From Naegleria gruberi (lineage: Eukaryota), in assembly GCA_000004985.1 (NCBI GenBank), contig GG738894.1: a stretch of DNA of 64,000 nucleotides, one strand, 5' to 3'. Below, one piece after another: positions 18,372 through 64,000 of the stretch (within the stretch, counting starts at the first letter, position 1; each line of letters starts with the position of its first letter). A program made the translations under genes and the position numbers. The notes beneath the pieces were generated by a model. It was given only the letters and a program-made list of their open reading frames with translations. It searched no databases and was not told the DNA's origin.

Positions 18372-20936
18372 TTATTGTTTAGGCATTGTATCACAGTAAT
18401 CTGTGTAGAGTGGGATATCTTCCTTAAGACCCTTTCTCTTTCTGATAGATTTGATGAGTTTGTGAACTTTAGATTGAGGATCATAAACATTGTCTTCCAT
18501 AACTTTCCAGTGACTGAAACTACATTGAGGGAAAGCTTGTCCTTGAGTAACACCTCTCAACTCTTCTGTTAAACCGAAACTTTCCAACACAGGTAAATTA
18601 CCAGTTATACTAACGAGAGGAGTACCAATTACCATTTCAGTAGATTTGATAACACCTCTTCTATTAGAAATGACACTATAGACAGAACCCATCACTGATT
18701 GAGGACATTGAACTTCAACAAGATACATTGGTTCAACTAACTTTGGATCAGCTCTCAATTGACTAGCAGTCATGACACGAGATGTTGCTTGGAGAATTTG
18801 ACCAGCTCCACGATGGATAGAATCTGCATGAAGATTACAATCATTAAATTTGAATAAAACACCTCTCATTGCTTCGTCACATAAACCTCCTGAAGAACTG
18901 CTTTGTTGGAAGCTAGTGACCACATATTGTTGAATTTCATTAATATAGTCAACTGACTTGGTTGCATTTACCAAAATGTTACTACCCTTATCAGCTTCAG
19001 GTCCAAAACTCCAAATTCTCTTTGTTATACTAGGATCCCATTCAAAGTCAATTTCTAAAATCTTTGCTCTCTTATTTTGATCATCCATTGGCAATTGACC
19101 TTCCTTAATCATTTCAATTAATTCCTCACTGATTGGTTCAGCTTGCATGTATAAACGATTGTGGCCGTTAGCACTTCTTGCCATGACCATGTCACCATTC
19201 TTATTTGAAACTGTTTCGTGGAAAGTGACAACAGGAGGAGACTTTTTAATTTGAATTCCTCTTGCATATTCTTCTTCTAAATTCTTTAAACAAATTTCCA
19301 AATGCAATTCACCTGCTGTTCCAAGAATATGTTGACCACTATCATTTTGCTTACATTCCAATAGAGGATCACTTTGAACGAGACGTTTCAAACCTTCAAC
19401 AAATCGAGATAAATCAGCTGGATTGACTGGCTCAACTCCCATTTGAACTACAGGACTCACAGAGTATTTCATATTCTTAATTGGCATACATGCAACTTGT
19501 CCTTCTTCTGTCAATGTACATGATTTGATAATGTACTTGTCAAGACCAACAATACCGACGATGGCACCACAAGAAGCTTGAGTGATACTTTCAGTGTTTT
19601 TACCAACCATGACTAACAATCTTTGAATGCTTGTATGGAAAACATCTTTCTTAGCAATTGGATCATAGTTAGGACCCAAAATTCTCACCTTAGTTGATTG
19701 AGTCAAACTACCAGAGAATATACGAGCTAGAGCAATAAAACGACCAACATTATTACTCATACTAGAGCTAGTATTAGAGTGCATAGGTACCATCTTACTG
19801 ACATAGACAACCAGTGGTGCATTTGGATCACATTCCTTAATACCAGTAGCGTATGGATCTGTCAAATCTTCACCAGTGTAGAGGTTATCATACCTGACCT
19901 TTTGAGCCTCTTTAGGAGAAGGTAAATGGTTGATAATCATTTGAACTAGAGGTTTGTGAGCTGGGAGGAACTTTCTCATGATTGATTTAGCTAAAAGTTT
20001 CGGCTCCTTTCTCTTTTCTTCTTTCGTCAGAGGTATAGACAATGCACCAATGATATTTTCCAAATCTGTTGACAAAATACCTTCACTCGAAATTGTATGT
20101 TCTCTAACCAACTTGAAAATCTTGAAAATAGGTTCTAAAATGAATTCACAGAAAGTATGTTTCAATTGTTGACCACTTGTCGATGAATAAGGTTCAGTGG
20201 TAAACTTCTTAGTTGAGTGATCATAATAATTTTCACCCCACAATTTGTTAATAACCTTCTCAACTGGAAGTTTAAACTTCTTGCTATATAATTGAGCGAA
20301 TTGCTCCAAAGTGAAAGCCCAACCCATCTTACCTGATCCAAAAGCAATGTTACAATCAACTGGATCAACAGAAACTGACTCATCAGAGTAAGTTGATAAT
20401 AGAGCATTCACAGACTCGATAATTCTTAAAAAGTTTTGATAACTTTCTTCTTCAGTAAATTGCATTTCTTCAATCAAACGGTCAACCTTGTTAATGAAGA
20501 GAACTGGACGAATTCTTTCTTGAAGAGATTGTCTAATTACTGTTTCAGTTTGACCTCTACAACCTTCAGCAGCATCAACAATCAGCACTGCACCATCAGT
20601 AATTCTCAAAGCTGTACTAACTTCAGATGAGAAATCAATGTGACCTGGACAATCGATCAAATTAACCAAATGATGATCATTCTCCTTGTCTGGATTTTCC
20701 AATACCATACTCAAACTTGTTGATTTAATGGTAATACCCTTTTCAATTTCATTCTTATCTACGTCACAAACTCTCTTCTCACCTGCAGCATCTTCATCCA
20801 CTAAACCAGCTGCTAAAGCCAATTGATCAGTGAGTGTTGATTTACCATGATCAACGTGAGCAATTATACTAATGTTACGAATCTTGTTACTGTCGAGTAA
20901 GAGCCTTTCGAGTATTTCTTTACTGAACTTGACCAT
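18372..20936 (-). CDS. eEF2: Elongation factor 2 (eEF2)
   Basis: 854 aa. G1 AHVDHGKST, G3 DCPGHIDF, G4 NKVDR. The diphthamide-loop sequence is HADSIHRGAGQI. Full collinearity with the EF2 family. Confidence 0.9.
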   Translation of the reverse strand: MVKFSKEILERLLLDSNKIRNISIIAHVDHGKSTLTDQLALAAGLVDEDAAGEKRVCDVDKNEIEKGITIKSTSLSMVLENPDKENDHHLVNLIDCPGHIDFSSEVSTALRITDGAVLIVDAAEGCRGQTETVIRQSLQERIRPVLFINKVDRLIEEMQFTEEESYQNFLRIIESVNALLSTYSDESVSVDPVDCNIAFGSGKMGWAFTLEQFAQLYSKKFKLPVEKVINKLWGENYYDHSTKKFTTEPYSSTSGQQLKHTFCEFILEPIFKIFKLVREHTISSEGILSTDLENIIGALSIPLTKEEKRKEPKLLAKSIMRKFLPAHKPLVQMIINHLPSPKEAQKVRYDNLYTGEDLTDPYATGIKECDPNAPLVVYVSKMVPMHSNTSSSMSNNVGRFIALARIFSGSLTQSTKVRILGPNYDPIAKKDVFHTSIQRLLVMVGKNTESITQASCGAIVGIVGLDKYIIKSCTLTEEGQVACMPIKNMKYSVSPVVQMGVEPVNPADLSRFVEGLKRLVQSDPLLECKQNDSGQHILGTAGELHLEICLKNLEEEYARGIQIKKSPPVVTFHETVSNKNGDMVMARSANGHNRLYMQAEPISEELIEMIKEGQLPMDDQNKRAKILEIDFEWDPSITKRIWSFGPEADKGSNILVNATKSVDYINEIQQYVVTSFQQSSSSGGLCDEAMRGVLFKFNDCNLHADSIHRGAGQILQATSRVMTASQLRADPKLVEPMYLVEVQCPQSVMGSVYSVISNRRGVIKSTEMVIGTPLVSITGNLPVLESFGLTEELRGVTQGQAFPQCSFSHWKVMEDNVYDPQSKVHKLIKSIRKRKGLKEDIPLYTDYCDTMPKQ

Positions 20937-24784: not shown

Positions 24785-25061
24785 CACGAGCCATCAGCCA
24801 AAATTGTTTAATAAATTAAAAAGACTACAGCACCACAGGTTTCCAAGTTGTCTCCAACCTCAGTACTGATGTGGCTCGACGATGCTTAACTTCTCAAATC
24901 GGACAGGATGAGGTGCATTCATCGTGATATGGCCGTAGCCATTCATTTCCTTAATACAATGAATATAAAGAATATTTAACTAATTGGATCAGAAATTTAT
25001 TCATTTTACATATTAACTCGGGCTATATTGTTGAATCTCTTGTTTCACTCTTTAGAAATAA

Positions 25062-29753: not shown

Positions 29754-30916
29754 TTAAAGAGAATTCAAAATTTCTTCAGCAGTTTTTTCCACCTCTTGTC
29801 TATTCAAAGTATTAACAATGTAAACTCCCTTCACTTGTTTATGTGAATCGGCTTTAATAAATCTACTCATGAGAAAATCCTTCACTTGATTGACTTGTTC
29901 TGAGCTTTTCACAAATTCTGGAAAGAGAGAGGAAAAGACAACTTTTTGTCTGTGAATGATTTCTTCCAAAATGTCAAGTTTTGTAAAGATTAGAAAGATT
30001 GGAACAGTGGTTGATGAGATAACGTCCTTGAAACATTTCAAACTCTCATTAGCTCTGTTGAAATTCATTTTCCGATATACATATTCGAATAGAGGTAATA
30101 AACTTACCTATTTTCATTCTGATCTTCATAACAATATTGAAAGCATTCACTTAATGAAACCATGAAAAAGATAGCATCTGGAAGAGGATTTGCACTAATT
30201 ACATGTTTCCATTTCTTTCTCTCATTTCTTTGTCCTCCTGTATCTGTTCTAAATTCGTAAAATATTGAATTACCCAATTAGTTAATAACATACATGGTCA
30301 ATTTGAAATTTTTAAATTCAGTTGATCCACAATTTACAATTCCGACTGTCTTTTTCTGTAATCTTGCCAGATCCTCAATTGTTGGCTCATAATTATTCGA
30401 AAGTAGAATTCTCTCACTATTCTTAAAGAAATATTGATGATTTCCTGCGAGATGAAGGAGAGGATACAGTTCTGGATTGTCAATCACATCACAAACTGCT
30501 GGATTTTTCAATAATTTGATAAAATTCTTGCAATTCTTCAACAACACCTCCAAATGTCTCCTTTCAAAATGACTGTCAACATAATTTTCCACTAGGTGAG
30601 CTAATTGCTTGACAATATTTTCATCATCACCTGTAATATTCCTTCTAACCTGCGCATTTGTTGTAATATTCACCAAATTTTGAAGAACACTATATTGAAT
30701 ATGTTCGGAATGAATTTTCAAATTCTTATCAACAACAACTTGATTGGAAATTAATTGTCGTGCAAATGATGATTTGCCACATTCACCAGTTCCCAGAAAT
30801 ACAAACGACTTGTTGATGAATGAGCACGATGGAACAATTCCAGTAAAGAAGGTGAAGGGAGGAGAGGGCTTGTTCTTCATTTTGTTTTTTTTTGTATAAT
30901 TGTAAGTGGGCGGCAA
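29754..30916 (-). CDS. Divergent heterotrimeric G-protein alpha-subunit-like protein. Three exons (30294..30916, 30108..30248, 29754..30054).
   Basis: P-loop FLGTGECGKSS (compare GAGESGKST). Switch II/G3 TDTGGQRNERKKW after a GTATGT…TTTAG intron. G4 FTKLD and C-terminal NRANESLKCFKDVISSTTVPIFLIFTKLDILEEII (compare NRMHESLKLF…ILFLNKKDLFEEKI) after a GTAAGT…AACAG intron. No N-terminal MGC. Confidence 0.7.
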
Positions 30917-30969: not shown

Positions 30970-32818
30970 TTATTCCTTCCTGCACAACATAAAGATGTGC
31001 TCTGGATTCCTAGAGAACATTTTTTCAATTCTGTACTGTCTTTGACTAATGCTGGTAATTTCTACAAATTTTGTACAATCTTCATTATTTCCAGGGAATC
31101 TACCAGTCGCAAATGTTGTTCCCATACCATTAACAATTATTGTATAGTTTGTTCCACATATTATTTGTTTGATACCTTCTGATACGAGTGCATGAGGCAA
31201 TAGATTTGTAACTTCGAATAGACGGCACTGAGAAGTCTTATTTCCAATACCCAATTGACCATTAAAATTCAATCCAGCTGCAAACACTCTTTGGTCAACT
31301 GTCATGCAAAATAAATGACTTGATCCACAAGAAACATCTACTAACTTGATATTTTGGCCATCTACATTGAATTGATTAGGGTGAACATATTTCAACCAGT
31401 GGATAGAGGAAGAAGCTCTACTAGCTGAGGATTTAGAGGAAGCTGCTGAGGAAGGTTTTTCATGATTATAAGGAAGGAATTTAGGTATTAATGGCTGCAC
31501 CAACTTTCCTTGAAATGAGAAATCAACTTTTACATCCAATTCTTCTCCATTCTTCCCAGGTTCCAAATTAATATCCACTTTAACAAACTTTTCCACCACT
31601 TTTTCAGATACAGAAAATTGAGCCTCTGTTGGACGATAATTGTTCGCGACGAATGTACCATTAGCAATTACACCAGTCATTCCACAACCACATAGCCATA
31701 ATTGACCATGCTTTGCCAGGAATGCAGAATAATCACTTCCACACATTATTCCATCAATCTCAACAAATGTTTTCTTTGTTCTCAATCTTCTGTATTCCTC
31801 GGTTTCTTGTTGTGTTTCTCTCATAATTTCTACCAATCTTGGTCTGGGAACATACTTAAGTTGAGCCTTTTCTGTTTGTGATAAATCCCCTTTGATATCC
31901 AAAAATCCAAGAACTCCTAGTTGACCTTGAGAACCATTTCCGAATCCATACACTAATCCAGTATCCGTAAGGCAAATAGTATGATGATCACCACAAGCAA
32001 CCTTAGTAATTCTAATATCTCTATTAATGAAATCCTCAACAACTCGTGGCACATTTTCATTTTCGAAATTTGAATGACCAAGTTGCCCATATTTTCCATA
32101 TCCAAAAGTATGTACATTTCCCTCGTCTGTAACTATAGCAGAGTGATGTTTGCCAACAGCAATATCAATTGCTCTATCCATGATTAGAACTGGTTTCCTC
32201 ACAAATGGTGCCTTTGTTCCTGTTGAATCTTCATATCCATCACCAAGTTTTCCGAACTCTGCATCTCCAATACTATATACAAATCCATCCCCTGTTGTTA
32301 TTTCATTCAATACAAACAAAATACATAGTATAATTATTAAATAAATATTTGGAGAGATACTTACTTGTTAGGATTAAGCAATGTTTAAATCTTGTCTCAA
32401 TTTTAGTAATTTTATAAGGAGGAATCACAGTGTCTTCCACTTTCAATGAATATCCAAATGGACGAAGTGGAAAATACACTTTATAATCGGGATCATACAA
32501 CCTTCTCTCCTGAATTCTTTTCTCTGTCCACGGTAATGGATAGGTCTCTTCCTGCCATTTTCCTCTTGATTTTGGTGGTTTTGCATTAGGATCAATCATA
32601 ACCATCTTTCTCGAAAATTCAGCTCTAAAATCACTAGACTCCGAAAATGAACAACCCAACTCTCTTTGTTTTGGATTTTCCAATAAGGTTAAAAGTAAAC
32701 TCAAATCCTCCTCCCTTATAGATGATGCTGTCGATGTCTCACTGACATAGGAACGAACTGAATGAGCAGAGTGAGAAGACGACGATCGATTTGAACGAGC
32801 AGATCCAATTGAACTCAT
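30970..32818 (-). CDS. RCC1-repeat (regulator of chromosome condensation-like) protein. Two exons with an intron at ~32292..32364.
   Basis: Repeated FGxGxxGQLG blades (FGYGKYGQLGH, FGNGSQGQLGV, AAGLNFNGQLGIG). The Ser-rich N-terminal exon (32365..32818) joins through GTAAGT…AACAG (…LILT-R-DGFVYSIGDAEFGKLGDG). Confidence 0.75.
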
Positions 32819-33108
32819 TTTTTTGTAGTTTTTGGCGGGAAATTTTCAAACCAACAACAAACCACAACATCATTAAACAAACAAGCACAAGCATTATAAA
32901 TGTTTGAAAAAAACAAATCCAATAACTAAGGTCTGCTCAATAAATTGTTTTGTATTCAACACACATTTTATTTACCCTTTGATGCACAGAAGTGAATCAT
33001 GTCATCCTGTCATTTCAAGACCCGAGTCACTCCATAAAAATATTAAAAGGTAATCCATGACATTTCACTATCAAATTTCTCATCACAATAAAAAATATTA
33101 ACAACACA

Positions 33109-34257
33109 ATGAATACAGGCAAGTGGCTCGTCCTCTCCTTGTTGTTTGTAGTTTTGTTGGCATGCGCTTCCTTCGCCTCTGCTCAACAAGCTGAAACACA
33201 AGCTGTCATCAAAACAACAGCAGCTCCAGCTGTCAAACCAACAACAACAGCTGTCAAACCAAAAGTTGTTGCTAAAAAGAAGAAAACTGCCAAGAAATCA
33301 AAGAAGGCTCAAAAGAAGAAGGTAAAGAAAGCCAAGAAGGCCGCTAAGAAGGCAAAGAAGGCTAAAAAATCAAAGAAATCATCAAAGAAGACTTGTGCTA
33401 GAGTTGTCAAGAGATTTAGAAAGGCTTCCGGAAAATTGAGAAAAGCTTTGAAGAAATCCAAAAAGTCTGTAAAGAGACTCAGATCCCGTGTTCAAAAGTT
33501 GAGACTCAGATTGAAGAAGTGTGGAAAGTCTGTCAAGAAAGCTAAGAAGGCTGTCAAGAAGGCCAAAAAAGCTGCCAGAAAGACTAAGAGATCCAAGAAA
33601 TCCAAGAAGGCAAAGAAATCAAAGGCCAGAAAATTGAGAAAATTGAGAAGATGTGCCAAGAAGGCTAAATCCTTGAAGAAGAGAAAGGCCTGTAGAAAGG
33701 CATTGAAGAGAGTTAGAAAGCTCAGAAAGTTGAGAAGATGTGCCAAGAAGGCTAAATCTTTAAAGAAGAGAAAGGCTTGTAGAAAGCTCTTGAGAAGAAT
33801 CAGAAAGCTCAGAAGATTGAGAAGATGTGCCAAGAAGGCCAAGACTTTGAAGAAGAGAAATGCCTGTAAAGCTGCTTTGGCTAAACTCACCAAGAAGGTT
33901 AAGAAGGCCAAGAAGGCTGTCAAGAAGGCCTCTAAGAAATCAAAGAAGTCAAAGAAGACTGCCAAGAAATCAAAGAAGGTTGCCAAGAAAGTTGTTGCCA
34001 AGAAGCTCACTGTTGAACAAAAGAAGGTTGCTGTTGCCGAAGCTATCAAGAAGGCTATCAGAGCTGCTGCTAACAAGGTCAAACAAGCCAAGAAGATTGC
34101 TGCCAAGAAGGTCACTAAAAAGACTGCCAAGAAGCAAACCAAGAAGACTGCTAAGAAGTCCAAGAAGGCTGCCAGAAAGACCAAGAAATCAAAGAAGACC
34201 TCTAAGAAGCAATGGAGAAAGTTGGTTAAGAGATTGACCAAGCTCTACAAGTGCTAA
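33109..34257 (+). CDS. Secreted highly basic Lys/Ala-rich protein with Cys-containing tandem repeats
   Basis: Signal peptide MNTGKWLVLSLLFVVLLACASFASA. About 45% Lys. Three tandem copies of a ~30-aa unit RKLRKLRRCAKKAKSLKKRKACRKALKRV. The overlapping minus-strand ORFs are artefacts of the repeat. Confidence 0.6.
   Translation: MNTGKWLVLSLLFVVLLACASFASAQQAETQAVIKTTAAPAVKPTTTAVKPKVVAKKKKTAKKSKKAQKKKVKKAKKAAKKAKKAKKSKKSSKKTCARVVKRFRKASGKLRKALKKSKKSVKRLRSRVQKLRLRLKKCGKSVKKAKKAVKKAKKAARKTKRSKKSKKAKKSKARKLRKLRRCAKKAKSLKKRKACRKALKRVRKLRKLRRCAKKAKSLKKRKACRKLLRRIRKLRRLRRCAKKAKTLKKRNACKAALAKLTKKVKKAKKAVKKASKKSKKSKKTAKKSKKVAKKVVAKKLTVEQKKVAVAEAIKKAIRAAANKVKQAKKIAAKKVTKKTAKKQTKKTAKKSKKAARKTKKSKKTSKKQWRKLVKRLTKLYKC
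33630..33860 (+). repeat. Three tandem ~90-bp coding repeats inside the K-rich gene
   Basis: aaattgagaagatgtgccaagaaggctaaatc[c/t]ttgaagaagagaaaggc[c/t]tgtagaaag… is repeated three times with few substitutions. Confidence 0.6.
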
Positions 34258-35706
34258 ATTATTGGCCAATGTGTTAAATTATTAATTTTTCCCTAACTGA
34301 ACTAAATGTAATACAATGCTATTGAAAACAGACCTTGTTAGGAATTTATCTTTCTTGTTTTGTTCTTTGAGCTTGTGAAGTAATTGCACTTTTGCAAACT
34401 TTCAAACAACTTATCGGAATAACTTCTAATTGACTGCTAATATTTTCAAGAAACAAATAAGATGTTGAAATGATTCTTTTGCAAGTAGGGTTCTCAACGA
34501 TTGAGGTCGATATTAGTACCGGTTATCACTATTTCCATAAGGAAAGAGATCAACACCTAATAAAGACCAAGGAGACAAACAGTGACTAGAATTGAGCAAA
34601 TTCTTACTGAAATTTTGTGTTATCCCAACCAAATGAGCAATAATAATCTTCAAACAAAATAAAATAAGAAGAGATAACTACCATAGTTTGGTTCCCAACT
34701 TTTCAAAAATCAAATAGGGATTTCATCTTTTTCATGCAAAGAACTGTCTCTGCCAAGAAAACACTTCAATAACTACTTTATTGGTGGAGAGGACCTGAGG
34801 AGATTGTTGATGTATAACATATTTCTCTCAATGATAATTGGAAGACAGTTGCTTCCGATGCATTGATGATGAAGGTAATATCTGTTCAGGACAAGTTGAT
34901 AATGGTCAAAGACCAACACTGAAAACAAGCCTTAGAAAAAAAACTGAAAAAAACAACAACATATCATTTTGCAGTGCAGTTCGTTTCTCTTGATAACATT
35001 GTTATTAACCCTAACACCTACAACAATAACTGGTTAACTTGCTCTCTCCCGAATAAGATCACTTTAGTGGTGCGTCATCATTATCACCACACTGGTGATC
35101 CACAACAAGAAACAAACTCTCAATAACAAACAACAAAAACGCTTCATCAACAAATTGGTATTGAAGGTTCAGTGCGTTTCCTAATTTCTTAAGCTTGCCA
35201 AATACGTGCATCATTAAACCTATTGACCTGCAACAATCACACAAAAGAACTAGCTGTCATACCCAACATTAGCACCCTTACTTATTCTAGCATCCTAATA
35301 AGTCCATCAACATCACCAAACAAGGCAGAGAATCGTTTTAAGGTTCCATCATTTCAATATTGACATACAACACTTGCAAACAAGGCTATTGAGACTCTGT
35401 TAAAGCATTGCATGTGCTTTGTTTTCAAATCATCTGCATGGATCAATTTTTCTTAATTTTATCATCCAAGATTCACTAAATTCCACGACACAACAAAATA
35501 TCGTCACTCTCTGTGCTTTAACAATTATAACCAAGCACGAGGAAGAAGTAAAAGAGAACTGATTCAGAAATAGAATAGGTCGTACTGTTAGAAACAAGTA
35601 GAGTCGTCATATACATGAAAAGTAGTGAATTCAAGTATTGCTTTTTAATTGATTTGAAAGAAAAAGAAAACGAATTTAATCCTAAACATTCAACCACTTC
35701 ATCGAC

Positions 35707-36630
35707 ATGAAAGACTCACAACAACAGCAGCAACCAGCACAGCCCCAACCTTTGAAATTTATTCAAGTCTCGAATGTGAAAAAGAAACCAGTCCAACGAA
35801 AAAAGTACTATCCCACAAAGAGTAACAAAAGGCAGCAGGGTAGTAACAAATCATCAACAAGCAATCAAACATGTAGTCAAGAAGGTCATTCACAACATGA
35901 GCAAGCATCACATTCTCATGTACACTCGACAACTACATGTTCCTCATCTAGCTTATCCAGAAGTATTTTACATGGGATTGGATCTTCCGAGGTTAATTAT
36001 ATGAATGGAAATAATGACGATTCAACCAGCTCATTGGATGCTTCTTCATCTTTACACATGTTGCAACAACATCCAACAAGCAATTCTAAAGGACCGTCAT
36101 TGCATGTGTTCAACAACAATACATTGGATGAAACATCTAAACATAGTGATTCGAGTAGTGTAGGAATTGAACATTGCATGCATGGAAGAAATTCAACATC
36201 ATCTCCTGCTAGCAACATGTTATCCACATCCATCAATAATAACAGCAATAATATTCATTTTGTGATGGAGGCATCTCCCAAGTACATAACTCATGTGGCA
36301 AAGAAGAGGAATACTCTTGCCAAGGACAATCTCATCAAGGTTTTACACTTGTCACAAGTACAGGCATGCCGAGTATTGGGATGTAGTTTGTCCACATTAA
36401 AAAGAAGATTTGGAGAGGTTAAACAGGAATTGGGAATGGAGAAATGGCCCTCCTATTATGATGATGTGAGACATTTACCGATATTTCCCAAACTTTACCC
36501 AATGTCTCTGCAATTCATTATGAATGAGCATGACTGCTCTGATTTGCCACAGGACTGCAACCTAATATTTGAGCACGCTGCACAATTAAGCTCAACCTTT
36601 CCAAAACCATTAACTTCTCCTGAGGATTAA
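35707..36630 (+). CDS. RWP-RK domain transcription-factor-like protein (paralog 1)
   Basis: The C-terminal domain IKVLHLSQVQACRVLGCSLSTLKRRFGEVKQELGMEKWPSY matches the RWP-RK consensus (L…A..LG.S.T.LKR.CR..GI.RWP.RK). Gln/Ser-rich N-terminus. Confidence 0.6.
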   Translation: MKDSQQQQQPAQPQPLKFIQVSNVKKKPVQRKKYYPTKSNKRQQGSNKSSTSNQTCSQEGHSQHEQASHSHVHSTTTCSSSSLSRSILHGIGSSEVNYMNGNNDDSTSSLDASSSLHMLQQHPTSNSKGPSLHVFNNNTLDETSKHSDSSSVGIEHCMHGRNSTSSPASNMLSTSINNNSNNIHFVMEASPKYITHVAKKRNTLAKDNLIKVLHLSQVQACRVLGCSLSTLKRRFGEVKQELGMEKWPSYYDDVRHLPIFPKLYPMSLQFIMNEHDCSDLPQDCNLIFEHAAQLSSTFPKPLTSPED

Positions 36631-37519: not shown

Positions 37520-38023
37520 ATGCTAACTACCCTCACAACATCCAGTAATTTAAAGATAGATGGAAATTTGCAGATTGATTCACTTCCTTCCTCACTCCTT
37601 GTATCAACACAACCTCAGCACCATCAACAACAACAGGATAATTTATCTAGCTATAGCATTACAGTGTGGAGAAAATCCTCTCACGACTCTTCATTTCACA
37701 CCAAGATTGTTGAGAGAAGAAAACATGAGAGAAGAAACAAACTCATCACTCGAAAAGAAATGATTAAAGTATTGCACCTCTCTCAAAATCAAGCATGCAA
37801 AGTATTGAATTGTTCATTGTCGACTCTCAAGAGAAGATTCTACCAATTGAAAGATGAAATTGGACTCGATAGATGGCCTCAATACTTTAAAGAGGTGAGG
37901 CATTTGCCAATCTTTAATCAAATGTATCCAATGTCTCTTGAATTCATCCTCAATGATCCAAATACATGTCAACAAGATGAAACCATTAGTGATCCAGAAG
38001 AGTTTGATGATACTTCTAATTAG
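37520..38023 (+). CDS. RWP-RK domain protein (paralog 2). The 5' extent is uncertain.
   Basis: IKVLHLSQNQACKVLNCSLSTLKRRFYQLKDEIGLDRWPQYFKEVRHLPIFNQMYPMSLEFILND is about 65% identical to the C-terminus of 35707..36630. Confidence 0.6.
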   Translation: MLTTLTTSSNLKIDGNLQIDSLPSSLLVSTQPQHHQQQQDNLSSYSITVWRKSSHDSSFHTKIVERRKHERRNKLITRKEMIKVLHLSQNQACKVLNCSLSTLKRRFYQLKDEIGLDRWPQYFKEVRHLPIFNQMYPMSLEFILNDPNTCQQDETISDPEEFDDTSN

Positions 38024-56965: not shown

Positions 56966-57129
56966 ATTTACAACCTAGATTAAAAACTAAATTATAAAAC
57001 AAATAAAGCTGAGTAGGGAGCTTTGTGTAAAATAAGAGCCAACGATTGTTATTTACAAAATAATTTATTTTCTTTTACATCTGTTCCTGTATCAGTATTT
57101 ATTTACCTTTTGATTAGTGTTGAATCGAT

Positions 57130-57220
57130 GGTGAGTTGGTCGAGTGGTCTAAGACGACACGTTAAGGTATGATTAATACCGTGTTCCGCAAGGGCGTGGG
57201 TTCAAATCCCACACTCATCA
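57130..57220 (+). tRNA. tRNA-Leu(AAG) with an 11-nt intron (approximate coordinates)
   Basis: Type II tRNA. Acceptor GGTGAGT/ACTCATC with one G-U pair, and discriminator A. D-arm GTC-GAGTGGTCTAA-GAC. Anticodon stem ACACG/CGTGT with loop TTAAGG-[TATGATTAATA]-C, the intron sitting after position 37. Long variable arm. T-arm GTGGG-TTCAAAT-CCCAC. Confidence 0.7.
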
Positions 57221-57422
57221 GTTTTTAATTTAATGATCAAAATAAAATTTTATCTTCATTGCCATCAAAAATCATTTTAGTACTTTGTCAATCTTATTTC
57301 CTCTCACACCATTATTGTAGCGCGGAAGCAAGGTAATCCATCGAAAATCAATGGTGAGGTTGAACACGTGTTCAGATCATCAAACAAATATCAAGAGCTC
57401 GGAAAATTGCGATATAAAAAAA

Positions 57423-58393: not shown

Positions 58394-58467
58394 GCCTTCC
58401 TAGCTCAGTTGGCAGTAGCGCTGTCCTAGTAAGACAGAGGTCTTGGGTTCGATTCCCAAGGGAGGCA
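58394..58467 (+). tRNA. tRNA-Thr(AGU) (approximate coordinates)
   Basis: Acceptor GCCTTCC/GGGAGGC with one G-U pair, and discriminator A. Anticodon stem CTGTC/GACAG with loop CTAGTAA (U33, AGT, A37). T-arm TTGGG-TTCGATT-CCCAA. The D-stem has one mismatch. Confidence 0.55.
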
Positions 58468-60870: not shown

Positions 60871-60920
60871 NNNNNNNNNNNNNNNNNNNNNNNNNNNNNN
60901 NNNNNNNNNNNNNNNNNNNN
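60871..60920. other. Assembly gap (50 N)
   Basis: Run of N. Confidence 1.
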
Positions 60921-61909: not shown

Positions 61910-64000
61910 NNNNNNNNNNNNNNNNNNNNNNNNNNNNNNNNNNNNNNNNNNNNNNNNNNNNNNNNNNNNNNNNNNNNNNNNNNNNNNNNNNNNNNNNNNN
62001 NNNNNNNNNNNNNNNNNNNNNNNNNNNNNNNNNNNNNNNNNNNNNNNNNNNNNNNNNNNNNNNNNNNNNNNNNNNNNNNNNNNNNNNNNNNNNNNNNNNN
62101 NNNNNNNNNNNNNNNNNNNNNNNNNNNNNNNNNNNNNNNNNNNNNNNNNNNNNNNNNNNNNNNNNNNNNNNNNNNNNNNNNNNNNNNNNNNNNNNNNNNN
62201 NNNNNNNNNNNNNNNNNNNNNNNNNNNNNNNNNNNNNNNNNNNNNNNNNNNNNNNNNNNNNNNNNNNNNNNNNNNNNNNNNNNNNNNNNNNNNNNNNNNN
62301 NNNNNNNNNNNNNNNNNNNNNNNNNNNNNNNNNNNNNNNNNNNNNNNNNNNNNNNNNNNNNNNNNNNNNNNNNNNNNNNNNNNNNNNNNNNNNNNNNNNN
62401 NNNNNNNNNNNNNNNNNNNNNNNNNNNNNNNNNNNNNNNNNNNNNNNNNNNNNNNNNNNNNNNNNNNNNNNNNNNNNNNNNNNNNNNNNNNNNNNNNNNN
62501 NNNNNNNNNNNNNNNNNNNNNNNNNNNNNNNNNNNNNNNNNNNNNNNNNNNNNNNNNNNNNNNNNNNNNNNNNNNNNNNNNNNNNNNNNNNNNNNNNNNN
62601 NNNNNNNNNNNNNNNNNNNNNNNNNNNNNNNNNNNNNNNNNNNNNNNNNNNNNNNNNNNNNNNNNNNNNNNNNNNNNNNNNNNNNNNNNNNNNNNNNNNN
62701 NNNNNNNNNNNNNNNNNNNNNNNNNNNNNNNNNNNNNNNNNNNNNNNNNNNNNNNNNNNNNNNNNNNNNNNNNNNNNNNNNNNNNNNNNNNNNNNNNNNN
62801 NNNNNNNNNNNNNNNNNNNNNNNNNNNNNNNNNNNNNNNNNNNNNNNNNNNNNNNNNNNNNNNNNNNNNNNNNNNNNNNNNNNNNNNNNNNNNNNNNNNN
62901 NNNNNNNNNNNNNNNNNNNNNNNNNNNNNNNNNNNNNNNNNNNNNNNNNNNNNNNNNNNNNNNNNNNNNNNNNNNNNNNNNNNNNNNNNNNNNNNNNNNN
63001 NNNNNNNNNNNNNNNNNNNNNNNNNNNNNNNNNNNNNNNNNNNNNNNNNNNNNNNNNNNNNNNNNNNNNNNNNNNNNNNNNNNNNNNNNNNNNNNNNNNN
63101 NNNNNNNNNNNNNNNNNNNNNNNNNNNNNNNNNNNNNNNNNNNNNNNNNNNNNNNNNNNNNNNNNNNNNNNNNNNNNNNNNNNNNNNNNNNNNNNNNNNN
63201 NNNNNNNNNNNNNNNNNNNNNNNNNNNNNNNNNNNNNNNNNNNNNNNNNNNNNNNNNNNNNNNNNNNNNNNNNNNNNNNNNNNNNNNNNNNNNNNNNNNN
63301 NNNNNNNNNNNNNNNNNNNNNNNNNNNNNNNNNNNNNNNNNNNNNNNNNNNNNNNNNNNNNNNNNNNNNNNNNNNNNNNNNNNNNNNNNNNNNNNNNNNN
63401 NNNNNNNNNNNNNNNNNNNNNNNNNNNNNNNNNNNNNNNNNNNNNNNNNNNNNNNNNNNNNNNNNNNNNNNNNNNNNNNNNNNNNNNNNNNNNNNNNNNN
63501 NNNNNNNNNNNNNNNNNNNNNNNNNNNNNNNNNNNNNNNNNNNNNNNNNNNNNNNNNNNNNNNNNNNNNNNNNNNNNNNNNNNNNNNNNNNNNNNNNNNN
63601 NNNNNNNNNNNNNNNNNNNNNNNNNNNNNNNNNNNNNNNNNNNNNNNNNNNNNNNNNNNNNNNNNNNNNNNNNNNNNNNNNNNNNNNNNNNNNNNNNNNN
63701 NNNNNNNNNNNNNNNNNNNNNNNNNNNNNNNNNNNNNNNNNNNNNNNNNNNNNNNNNNNNNNNNNNNNNNNNNNNNNNNNNNNNNNNNNNNNNNNNNNNN
63801 NNNNNNNNNNNNNNNNNNNNNNNNNNNNNNNNNNNNNNNNNNNNNNNNNNNNNNNNNNNNNNNNNNNNNNNNNNNNNNNNNNNNNNNNNNNNNNNNNNNN
63901 NNNNNNNNNNNNNNNNNNNNNNNNNNNNNNNNNNNNNNNNNNNNNNNNNNNNNNNNNNNNNNNNNNNNNNNNNNNNNNNNNNNNNNNNNNNNNNNNNNNN
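61910..64000. other. Assembly gap (2091 N)
   Basis: Run of N to the window end. Confidence 1.

What the first reader, a model, noticed from the sequence alone, without database searches (positions are those of the whole stretch)
33109..34257. Secreted, extremely lysine-rich protein with Cys-containing tandem repeats
A cleavable signal peptide is followed by ~350 aa of about 45% Lys/Ala/Arg, including three near-identical 30-aa repeats that each carry two Cys (…RRCAKKAKSLKKRKACRK…). A histone-H1-like composition on a secreted protein suggests a polyanion-binding extracellular protein (DNA, polyphosphate or matrix) or an antimicrobial or spore-coat component. The repeats are similar at the DNA level, which points to recent expansion.
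Basis: seen in the sequence. Interest (0 to 1): 0.5.

Follow-up and report, generated by a model that had tools for sequence, protein, structure and literature searches.

The report
Naegleria secreted super-basic helical protein
This is a real gene of the amoeba Naegleria gruberi, with counterparts in N. fowleri and N. lovaniensis, encoding a protein with an export signal whose body is half lysine/arginine (net charge about +170); it probably sticks to negatively charged material such as bacterial prey, but its role is untested.

Summary
Window 33109-34257 (+) is a 382-codon ORF with one Met. It has a classical signal-peptide-like N-terminus (ASA|QQ), a 30-aa neutral Thr/Pro linker, then about 330 aa with K+R 49%, Ala 16% and D+E 0.8% (net +172, 40.6 kDa). 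Three 29-aa repeats each carry a C-x12-C pair.

The organism is Naegleria gruberi NEG-M, not a dictyostelid.

The gene is real:
- A 99%-identical allele differs by 5 synonymous changes, 1 non-synonymous change and one in-frame codon.
- Codon bias matches highly expressed genes.
- Orthologs lie near the same RWP-RK genes in N. lovaniensis (502 aa) and N. fowleri.

The orthologs conserve the signal peptide and A-x-A|Q site, the linker, the C-terminal KLYKC, the charge density (K and R exchange freely) and a 100-degree apolar periodicity. The triple Cys repeat is specific to N. gruberi.

HMMER searches found nothing, but the libraries also lack the annotated N. lovaniensis ortholog, so those nulls are uninformative. 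No Pfam, PDB or fold relative was found.

Best reading: a secretory-pathway polycation that binds polyanions electrostatically, most likely bacterial prey. An adhesive or wall role is the main rival. It is a genus-level orphan family of moderate interest.

The parts
33109..34257 (+). Complete single-exon CDS (382 codons plus TAA) of the polycationic secreted protein
   Evidence: ORF list and translation. An in-frame stop lies upstream and there is only one Met. A 99% allele shows 5 synonymous and 1 non-synonymous substitution plus one in-frame codon indel. Orthologs are at L012 552-2060 and L013 583-2083.
32819..33108 (.). 290-bp intergenic region shared with the divergently transcribed RCC1-domain gene; presumed bidirectional promoter (inferred)
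   Evidence: The neighbouring ORF starts at 32818 on the minus strand. This region carries 1-nt and 2-nt indels between alleles, unlike the CDS. Promoter function was not tested.
33109..33183 (+). Signal peptide, aa 1-25 (MNTGKWLVLSLLFVVLLACASFASA), predicted cleavage ASA|QQ
   Evidence: This is the only strongly hydrophobic segment of the protein (KD 19-residue window maximum 2.54 at residue 7). The n/h/c architecture and A-x-A|Q are conserved in N. lovaniensis and N. fowleri. N-terminal similarity gives z=11-12 against shuffles. SignalP was not available.
33184..33273 (+). Near-neutral Thr/Pro/Ala linker, aa 26-55 (QQAETQAVIKTTAAPAVKPTTTAVKPKVVA)
   Evidence: Net charge is only +3 over 30 residues. 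The VKPTT motif is conserved in the orthologs. AF2 pLDDT is below 50 for residues 34-46. Its role as a spacer that keeps positive charge away from the signal peptide is inferred.
33274..33390 (+). First poly-lysine block, aa 56-94 (KKxKK-type low complexity)
   Evidence: Sequence and short-period TRF rows.
33391..33627 (+). Basic Leu/Arg-containing helical region with Cys96 and Cys138, aa 95-173
   Evidence: Cys positions. AF2 helices with pLDDT 85-94. Hydrophobic moment up to 0.71.
33628..33714 (+). Repeat unit 1 (aa 174-202, RKLRKLRRCAKKAKSLKKRKACRKALKRV), C182-x12-C195
   Evidence: TRF period 87. Unit alignment. The AF2 helix break at 186-188 lies inside the Cys pair.
33715..33801 (+). Repeat unit 2 (aa 203-231), C211-x12-C224
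   Evidence: Against unit 1 it differs at 14 of 87 nt: 6 synonymous and 3 non-synonymous codon differences.
33802..33888 (+). Repeat unit 3 (aa 232-260), C240-x12-C253
   Evidence: It shares 20-21 of 29 aa with units 1 and 2.
33889..34212 (+). C-terminal polybasic Lys/Ala/Val/Thr region, aa 261-368
   Evidence: Composition and short-period repeats. Apolar periodicity peaks at 102.5 degrees with p about 0.005.
34213..34254 (+). Conserved C-terminal motif WRKLVKRLTKLYKC ending in a terminal Cys
   Evidence: It aligns with RKLVFRLKKLYKC in N. lovaniensis and RKLVFKLRKLYKC in N. fowleri. The C-terminal 24 aa give z=6.5-7.1 against shuffles.

Best explanation
This is a genuine protein-coding gene, probably highly expressed, that is conserved in the genus Naegleria.

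The product enters the ER through a cleavable N-terminal signal peptide. A 30-residue neutral Thr/Pro linker follows. Then comes a roughly 330-residue polycation (K+R about 49%, almost no acidic residues, net about +172) that is predicted to be all alpha-helical, with a narrow Ala/Leu/Val stripe.

In N. gruberi the centre holds three 29-residue helix-turn-helix modules. Each turn is bracketed by a C-x12-C pair that could form a disulfide staple in the oxidising secretory pathway.

The protein most likely works by non-specific electrostatic binding and condensation of polyanions outside the cytosol. My preferred target is the anionic surface, and after entry the nucleic acids, of bacterial prey, in the medium or the phagosome. 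That would make it an agglutinating or bactericidal 'polycation', possibly also a precursor cut into many cationic peptides.

Shown:
- the gene, its anatomy and composition;
- conservation of the signal peptide, the termini, the charge and the helical periodicity;
- the codon bias.

Inferred: signal-peptide cleavage, disulfides, secretion, the ligand and the biological role.
For: Reality of the gene:
- Between two alleles there are 5 synonymous and 1 non-synonymous substitution and a 3-nt indel in the CDS, against 1-2-nt indels in the flanks.
- Orthologs lie in N. lovaniensis (L012 552-2060, 502 aa) and N. fowleri (L013 583-2083), linked to the same tandem RWP-RK genes.
- Against shuffles, similarity gives N-terminus z=11-12, C-terminus z=6.5-7.1 and middle z=8.7.

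Secretory targeting:
- The n/h/c layout and A-x-A|Q site are conserved in three species although the body diverges fast.
- The N-flank is positive and the first 30 mature residues are nearly neutral.

Electrostatic mode of action:
- K+R is 46-50% and D+E at most 1% in all three species.
- K and R exchange freely (K .37/R .09 against .26/.25), so charge rather than lysine chemistry is conserved.
- Mean hydrophobicity is very low (H -0.6 to -0.9). This argues for polyanion binding rather than membrane insertion.

Helicity:
- AF2 predicts an all-helical protein with pLDDT 80, with breaks at 186-188, 215-217 and 244-246, in the middle of each C-x12-C.
- Apolar residues show 100-102.5 degree periodicity in all three orthologs (p from 0.01 to below 0.0025).

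High expression:
- AAG .77, AGA .97, TTG+CTC .97 and GCT+GCC .92, like VDAC and the V-ATPase subunit and unlike other neighbours.
- The orthologs show the same contrast with their neighbours.

Precedents:
- Excess positive charge is reported as necessary and sufficient for killing by cationic peptides, with signal peptides protecting the producer (bioRxiv 10.1101/2023.03.09.531820).
- Naegleria is already known to make antimicrobial peptides from multipeptide precursors (cited in PMC5850478).
Against: - There is no experimental or expression data for this gene or its orthologs in the searchable literature.
- SignalP and TM predictors were unavailable, so an uncleaved signal anchor is not excluded.
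- There is no anionic pro-piece of the kind that usually neutralises cationic host-defence peptides during export.
- Typical membrane-active antimicrobial peptides are far more hydrophobic.
- The AAG bias could partly reflect avoidance of poly(A) tracts (longest A-run 6) rather than high expression.
- AF2 used a single sequence and pTM is 0.34, so the tertiary arrangement and Cys-Cys proximity are unverified.
- The number of mature Cys (9 in N. gruberi, 8 in N. lovaniensis) and their spacing are not conserved apart from the C-terminal Cys and one RRCAK motif.
Confidence: 0.42

Rival explanations
1. It is a structural or adhesive extracellular polycation. Once secreted, it binds acidic polysaccharides or negatively charged surfaces and acts as a natural 'poly-lysine' glue. 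Possible sites are amoeba-substrate adhesion, the surface coat, the cyst wall or the ostiole plugs. The conserved C-terminal Cys and the other Cys would give intermolecular disulfide cross-links.
For: It shares the anatomy used for the best explanation: signal peptide, extreme charge, conserved terminal Cys. The very low hydrophobicity suits matrix binding better than membrane attack. N. gruberi has an odd number (9) of mature Cys. Secreted lysine-rich polycations that act on acidic wall polymers are known in plants (PMC10707938, listed; abstract only read).
Against: Free K-to-R exchange between species argues against lysine-specific cross-linking chemistry. The known Naegleria wall polymers (beta-glucan/chitin-like, from my own knowledge) are neutral. 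Strong growth-type codon bias is more typical of trophozoite-phase abundant proteins. There is no carbohydrate-binding domain.
Confidence: 0.25
2. It is a luminal counter-ion or packaging protein of an acidic organelle such as an acidocalcisome or lysosome-related organelle. It would be sorted through the secretory pathway and retained to condense polyphosphate or another stored polyanion.
For: Signal peptide plus conserved charge density and helix-forming sequence. There is no pro-piece, which would be tolerable if a polyanionic partner neutralises it in the lumen.
Against: No sorting motif was recognised and no transmembrane or retention signal is present: the C-terminus is KLYKC, not KDEL or KKXX. 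No precedent family was found in Pfam, PDB or fold searches.
Confidence: 0.1
3. It is not secreted. The N-terminal hydrophobic segment would be an uncleaved membrane anchor, and the polybasic domain would stay on the cytosolic or nucleoplasmic side. There it would bind ribosomes, RNA, chromatin or acidic lipids, like the ER protein RRBP1/p180 with its N-terminal anchor and basic tandem repeats.
For: The hydrophobic stretch can be read as 19 residues (W6-S24), long enough for a membrane span. The positive-inside rule would favour keeping a +172 domain cytosolic. The weak PDB sequence hits are to RNA-binding ribosomal tails (eL24, bS20c).
Against: The N-flank is positive and the 15-30 residues after the hydrophobic core are near neutral, with a conserved Glu; this predicts translocation of the C-terminal side. 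A-x-A|Q is conserved in all three species. The strongly hydrophobic core is only 13 residues. No Pfam match to the ribosome-receptor repeat or any other family was found.
Confidence: 0.1
4. It is not a functional gene: a stop-free frame produced by AAG-rich low-complexity DNA.
For: The same DNA has shadow ORFs in other frames (33492-34241 on the minus strand, 249 aa; 33860-34237 on the plus strand, 125 aa). Protein-library searches returned nothing.
Against: The ORF, signal peptide, linker and C-terminal motif are conserved across species. Allelic substitutions that are synonymous in the main frame change amino acids in the +2 shadow frame. All amino-acid classes show coherent codon bias. The library nulls are explained by library content.
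Confidence: 0.02

Closest known systems
Linker histone H1 C-terminal tail and H1-like polycations (for example kinetoplast KAP proteins, Chlamydia Hc1; recalled from knowledge)
   Same: Lys/Ala-dominated, nearly acid-free sequence of high net charge, expected to fold only on a polyanion. Polyanion condensation is the presumed mechanism.
   Different: No winged-helix globular domain and no Pfam Linker_histone hit. Proline is almost absent from the basic part (0.8% overall, all in the N-terminal linker), so there are no S/TPKK motifs. It carries a conserved ER signal peptide and Cys residues. The helical 100-degree periodicity is unlike H1 tails.
Cationic antimicrobial, venom and 'polycation poisoning' peptides (LL-37, crotamine; bioRxiv 10.1101/2023.03.09.531820)
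   Same: A signal peptide plus excess positive charge. That paper reports charge as necessary and sufficient for killing through condensation of anionic cell components. Amphipathic helical periodicity is shared.
   Different: It is ten times larger (40-56 kDa, +172 to about +250) and far less hydrophobic. It has no anionic pro-piece and no sequence or fold relationship. Activity is untested.
Naegleriapore multipeptide precursors (Herbst et al. 2004, as cited in PMC5850478)
   Same: Same genus. They are secretory-pathway precursors with internally repeated Cys-containing units that yield antimicrobial polypeptides.
   Different: Naegleriapores are saposin-like six-Cys folds. No saposin or any other Pfam domain is present here, and the repeat here is a 29-aa C-x12-C basic hairpin.
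Disulfide-stapled helical hairpins (CHCH twin CX9C proteins; plant alpha-hairpinins CX3C...CX3C; recalled from knowledge)
   Same: Helix-turn-helix predicted, with Cys on both sides of the turn.
   Different: One C-x12-C pair per hairpin instead of twin CX9C or CX3C pairs. It is secretory rather than in the mitochondrial intermembrane space. No sequence match. The disulfides are not demonstrated.
RRBP1/p180 ribosome receptor (recalled from knowledge)
   Same: An N-terminal hydrophobic segment followed by a long, highly basic, repetitive, helical region.
   Different: The flank charges and the conserved A-x-A|Q site predict cleavage and translocation here. There is no homology.

Membership tests
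Linker histone H1/H5 | Central winged-helix globular domain (Pfam Linker_histone, PF00538) | tested here: not met
   Pfam scans of the whole protein and of the core, at E up to 10, gave no such hit. The orthologs gave none either.
Linker histone H1/H5 | Lys/Ala/Pro-rich tail with S/TPKK-type motifs; nuclear protein without a signal peptide | tested here: not met
   The composition is Lys/Ala-rich, but Pro is 0.8% and confined to aa 40-52. A conserved hydrophobic signal peptide is present.
Cationic host-defence (antimicrobial) peptides (functional class) | Secretory signal, net positive charge, amphipathic structure | tested here: met
   Signal peptide by rules and by conservation. Net charge +172. 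Apolar periodicity of 100-102.5 degrees is significant in three orthologs.
Cationic host-defence (antimicrobial) peptides (functional class) | Substantial hydrophobic fraction, small size, and often an anionic pro-piece | tested here: not met
   Mean Eisenberg hydrophobicity is -0.6 to -0.9 in 18-residue windows. The mature protein is 357 aa. D+E is 0.8% and there is no acidic region.
Cationic host-defence (antimicrobial) peptides (functional class) | Demonstrated killing or binding of microbes | not testable with these tools
   This needs recombinant protein and bacterial assays.
Saposin-like naegleriapores | Saposin B-type six-cysteine domain | tested here: not met
   No Pfam SapB hit. The Cys pattern is C-x12-C in 29-aa units.
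CHCH / alpha-hairpinin disulfide-stapled helical hairpins | Twin CX9C or CX3C motifs facing each other on two helices | tested here: not met
   There is only one Cys on each side of each predicted turn, at C-x12-C spacing, and no Pfam CHCH hit.
RRBP1/p180-type ER-anchored basic repeat proteins | Uncleaved N-terminal anchor with an acidic or neutral luminal N-flank, a cytosolic basic decapeptide repeat, and a Pfam ribosome-receptor repeat | tested here: not met
   The N-flank carries Lys and the site A-x-A|Q is conserved. No Pfam hit. Topology itself was not tested experimentally.
Naegleria genus-specific secreted polycation family (defined here) | Signal peptide KWLV..LL..C.FA.A|Q, VKPTT linker, more than 300 aa with K+R 46-50% and D+E at most 1%, C-terminal RKLV.(R/K)L.KLYKC, linkage to the tandem RWP-RK genes | tested here: met
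   All features are present in the window gene and in L012 552-2060 and L013 583-2083.

The most novel reading that the evidence does not exclude
Naegleria species, including the brain-eating N. fowleri, abundantly secrete a protein-sized polycation of 40-56 kDa with net charge +170 to +250 and no neutralising pro-piece. It would act as a natural poly-lysine: a flocculant or 'polycation-poisoning' weapon against bacterial prey, or an electrostatic glue for adhesion. That would be a class of extracellular effector not described for protists. N. gruberi would have reinforced it with three disulfide-stapled helix-turn-helix modules.
Probability: 0.3. Interest if true: 0.6.

Novelty: new variant of a known kind. 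Interest (0 to 1): 0.4.

Why it matters
If the protein is truly secreted and abundant, it would be one of the most highly charged extracellular proteins known. It could serve as a simple model for three questions:
- How a eukaryote translates and translocates more than 300 residues of near-continuous positive charge. The genes avoid A-runs longer than 6 and use AAG for 77-87% of Lys codons.
- How a phagotroph uses bulk charge against prey or for adhesion.
- What the conserved counterpart does in the pathogen N. fowleri.

There is also a practical lesson. Standard HMMER and BLAST pipelines and clustered protein libraries miss this family entirely, and only synteny recovered the orthologs. Genus- or lineage-wide 'orphan' calls for low-complexity proteins should therefore be distrusted.

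Tried and rejected
Protein-library searches
- The word-indexed search found nothing, and its 8000-candidate list was saturated by K-rich words.
- The exhaustive phmmer search over 1.84 billion representatives found nothing.
- I first read these as 'orphan'. I then showed that phmmer scores the 99% allele at 2e-174.
- That allele and the annotated N. lovaniensis ortholog are both absent from the collection. The nulls therefore reflect library content and are not evidence of absence.
- For the same reason I dropped an early idea that the gene is unannotated in the N. gruberi reference. Even annotated N. gruberi neighbours are missing from the gene-position index, so annotation status cannot be determined here.

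DNA collection scans
- The viral-contig scan and the metagenome-contig scan with back-translated peptides gave 600 low-complexity matches each, none confirmed.
- A degenerate DNA pattern for C-A-K-K-x-K-x-L-K-K-x3-C in metagenomes gave 6 matches. All were chance, with stops around them and no K-rich context.

Synteny
- Working through the RCC1 neighbour, orthologous loci in N. lovaniensis, an N. fowleri-like assembly and another relative have unrelated genes at the corresponding position.
- This is a synteny breakpoint, not evidence of absence. Synteny through the RWP-RK neighbour succeeded.
- Further RWP-RK-containing contigs (L014-L016) held no K-rich ORF.

Family, structure and alignment searches
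- Pfam, PDB sequence searches and Foldseek against PDB gave only sub-threshold hits to designed helical bundles, coiled coils and ribosomal tails. I rejected these as compositional.
- Whole-protein BLASTP between orthologs gives no alignment because of low-complexity masking.
- The afdb50 fold library was unavailable.

Other
- A first, coarse amphipathicity spectrum was not significant. A finer scan restricted to the polybasic part was significant.
- Literature searches for the gene, its orthologs' presumed locus tags, Naegleria secretome or cyst-wall proteins, and lysine-rich Naegleria proteins found nothing on this protein.
Full report
**What is in the sequence**

Window 33109-34257 (+) is a 382-codon ORF ending in TAA. 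It begins at the first ATG after an in-frame stop, and that Met is the only one in the protein.

The N-terminus reads MNTGK-WLVLSLLFVVLLA-CASFASA|QQ: a short basic n-region, a 13-residue hydrophobic core, and a c-region with Ala at -3 and -1. It is the only hydrophobic segment of the protein.

The remaining 357 residues have K 38.9%, R 10.1%, A 16.0% and D+E 0.8%. That gives 40.6 kDa and net charge +172.

The order of parts is:
- a near-neutral Thr/Pro/Ala linker (aa 26-55);
- a poly-Lys block (aa 56-94);
- a Leu/Arg-containing basic region with C96 and C138;
- three tandem 29-aa units (aa 174-260, nt 33628-33888), each with C-x12-C;
- a long Lys/Ala/Val/Thr region;
- the C-terminal WRKLVKRLTKLYKC.

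TRF reports the 87-nt period with 2.7 copies at 86% match. The units share 20-26 of 29 residues and 77-84% of nucleotides. Units 1 and 2 differ at 6 synonymous and 3 non-synonymous codons.

**Whose genome**

Six neighbouring ORFs are identical to GenBank proteins of Naegleria gruberi strain NEG-M, on a 499,907-bp scaffold. Examples are EF2 EFC40215, the SET protein EFC40221 and the RWP-RK protein EFC40153.

The surrounding gene set fits a heterolobosean amoeba, not a dictyostelid. It includes receptor-type adenylate cyclase, RCC1, VDAC, a mitochondrial carrier and DUF4116, at about 35% GC with long intron-poor ORFs.

**Is it a real gene?**

Four lines of evidence say yes.

(a) A metagenome contig (ENA ERZ929261, locus L001) carries the same gene order and a 383-aa allele.
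- In the CDS there are six substitutions, five synonymous and one Ala-to-Thr, plus one inserted AAG codon.
- The 290-bp upstream and about 140-bp downstream flanks carry four substitutions and 1-2-nt indels.
- Two of the substitutions that are synonymous in the main frame change residues in the overlapping +2 shadow ORF.

(b) Codon choice is uniformly of the 'highly expressed' type.
- The gene uses AAG .77, AGA .97, GCT+GCC .92, TTG+CTC .97 and GTT+GTC .89.
- This resembles VDAC and the V-ATPase d subunit in the same window.
- It differs from the neighbouring regulatory genes, where AAG is .23-.54.

(c) Orthologs exist (next section).

(d) The shadow ORFs on the other strand and in the other frame are by-products of AAG-rich DNA.

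**Homologs**

Both HMMER-based library searches returned nothing, and so did the viral and metagenome scans.

These nulls are not informative:
- phmmer gives E=2e-174 for the 99% allele when tested locally.
- That allele is not in the collection.
- The annotated N. lovaniensis ortholog is not in it either.

Synteny through the upstream RCC1 gene led to orthologous loci that contain unrelated genes at the corresponding place. That marks a synteny breakpoint.

Synteny through the downstream RWP-RK gene succeeded:
- In N. lovaniensis (L012, PYSW02000034.1) and N. fowleri (L013, VFQX01000051.1), a K/R-rich ORF lies about 8 kb upstream of the RWP-RK ortholog.
- The tandem RWP-RK pair is collinear with window 36301-36540 and 37721-37954.

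The N. lovaniensis protein is 502 aa. The N. fowleri gene is interrupted by one extra A in an A-run, which is probably an assembly error.

The three proteins share:
- the signal peptide (KWLV..LL..C.FA.A|Q);
- the linker motif VKPTT;
- an RRCAK motif;
- the C-terminus RKLV.(R/K)L.KLYKC.

Against composition-preserving shuffles, the N-terminus scores z=11-12, the C-terminus z=6.5-7.1 and the middle z=8.7.

Charge density is conserved (K+R 46-50%, D+E at most 1%) but the basic residue is not: K .37/R .09 in N. gruberi against K .26/R .25 in N. lovaniensis.

Strong codon bias relative to neighbours is also conserved, and no A-run exceeds 6 nt.

The triple 29-aa repeat is specific to N. gruberi. 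N. lovaniensis has a single RRCAKRA copy without the second Cys, and an unrelated C-x13-C near its C-terminus.

**Structure**

AlphaFold2 on the single sequence predicts an almost entirely helical protein (mean pLDDT 80, pTM 0.34).
- The linker is disordered.
- Helix breaks fall at 186-188, 215-217 and 244-246, the centre of each C-x12-C.
- The repeats thus form 26-residue helices joined by 3-residue turns, with one Cys on each side of every turn.

A disulfide staple across each turn is plausible in the secretory pathway. It is not demonstrated, because coordinates and Cys-Cys distances were not available.

Apolar residues recur with 100-102.5 degree periodicity in the polybasic part of all three orthologs (p from about 0.01 to below 0.0025 against shuffles). 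Mean hydrophobicity is very low.

The picture is a helix with a thin Ala/Leu/Val stripe and an otherwise fully cationic surface. That form is expected to be stable only when the charge is neutralised by a polyanion (inference).

Pfam, PDB sequence and Foldseek/PDB searches return only sub-threshold compositional hits.

**How it most likely works**

Four conserved elements point to a secretory-pathway protein whose function resides in bulk positive charge presented on helices:
- an ER signal with a signal-peptidase site;
- a neutral spacer that keeps positive charge away from that site;
- a long acid-free polycation whose K/R identity is free to vary;
- a terminal Cys.

The mechanism would be electrostatic binding, bridging or condensation of polyanions.

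For a bacterivorous amoeba with apparently high expression of this gene, I consider bacterial prey the most likely target. The protein could agglutinate or kill bacteria in the medium or the phagosome, perhaps after cleavage into many cationic peptides.

Two precedents support this:
- Excess positive charge is reported to be necessary and sufficient for killing by cationic peptides, and signal peptides shield the producer (bioRxiv 10.1101/2023.03.09.531820).
- Naegleria is known to produce antimicrobial peptides from multipeptide precursors (PMC5850478 citing Herbst et al. 2004).

The rivals are:
- an adhesive or wall-matrix polycation;
- a luminal counter-ion for polyphosphate;
- an uncleaved anchor with a cytosolic RNA- or chromatin-binding domain, as in p180.

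The flank charges, the conserved A-x-A|Q site and the 13-residue hydrophobic core argue against the p180-like rival.

None of the functional readings is tested, and no literature on the gene was found.

**Comparison with known families**

In composition it is closest to histone H1 tails and H1-like polycations. It fails the defining tests for that family: it has no globular domain and no Pro-rich motifs, and it has a signal peptide.

In function it is closest to cationic host-defence peptides. It departs from them in size, hydrophobicity and the lack of a pro-piece.

It is neither a saposin-like naegleriapore nor a CHCH/alpha-hairpinin protein.

It is best described as a Naegleria-genus family of secreted super-basic helical proteins. 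That makes it an extreme variant of the 'secreted polycation' theme rather than a member of any described family.

**Verdict**

Interest is moderate at 0.4. In its favour are the striking extreme composition, conservation in a human pathogen and signs of high expression. Against it, this is a low-complexity protein whose role rests on inference.

Noticed in passing
window 33109-34257; L001 1161-2312; L012 552-2060: The protein collections behind the homology tools lack this protein, its 99% allele and the annotated N. lovaniensis ortholog. phmmer would score the allele at 2e-174. 'No homolog' results for such low-complexity proteins are therefore artefacts of library content.
   Followed up: yes
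L013 about 1235-1245 (N. fowleri VFQX01000051.1): The N. fowleri ortholog is split into two frames by one extra A in an A-run (CCAAAGAAAAAAGAGAG against CCAAAG-AGAAAGAGAG in N. lovaniensis). The record's gene model appears to bridge it with an intron (457 aa from 1501 nt). This is probably a homopolymer error of the nanopore-based assembly.
   Followed up: partly
window 30970-32818 (-): An RCC1-repeat gene is transcribed divergently from the target. It appears as two ORFs (171 aa and 449 aa) that overlap by 17 nt at 32303-32319, implying a short intron. Its ortholog in N. lovaniensis is 611 aa. Its own N. gruberi product did not appear among the homology hits, where the best was 62% identity.
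   Followed up: partly
window 32819-33108 compared with L002, L003 and L005: There is a synteny breakpoint exactly between the RCC1 gene and the target. RCC1 and the G-alpha gene (window 29766-30880) are collinear with N. lovaniensis and N. fowleri-like loci, but the other side differs completely.
   Followed up: yes
window 35707-36630 and 37520-38023 (+): Two tandem RWP-RK-domain genes lie here. The pair is conserved in N. lovaniensis and N. fowleri (L012 10001-10975 and 13498-13914), there with a UDG/GRF gene inserted between them.
   Followed up: partly
window 34258-35706: A 1.45-kb stretch downstream of the target has no ORF of 60 aa or more that looks coding, no Rfam hit and no gene called in the allele contig. 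This is unusually long for this gene-dense region.
   Followed up: partly
window 24822-24940 (-): A solitary 5S rRNA gene (Rfam 96.9 bits) sits between protein-coding genes.
   Followed up: no
window 57129-57221 (+) and 58394-58467 (+): Two tRNA genes. The first is 93 nt with an undetermined anticodon in ARAGORN, probably because it contains an intron. The second is tRNA-Thr(AGT).
   Followed up: no
window 18375-20936 (-): This EF2 gene is one of four full-length paralogs in N. gruberi that are at least 90% identical, two of them on this same scaffold (cluster 1). Its codon bias is weaker than that of VDAC.
   Followed up: no
window 33492-34241 (-) and 33860-34237 (+): Shadow ORFs (249 aa Phe/Leu-rich; 125 aa Arg/Leu/Pro-rich) are created by the AAG-rich coding sequence. 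Allelic changes are non-synonymous in the +2 shadow frame.
   Followed up: yes
window 60871-60920 and 61910-64000: Runs of N: a 50-nt assembly gap, and 2091 nt at the end of the window that are padding or a scaffold end.
   Followed up: no
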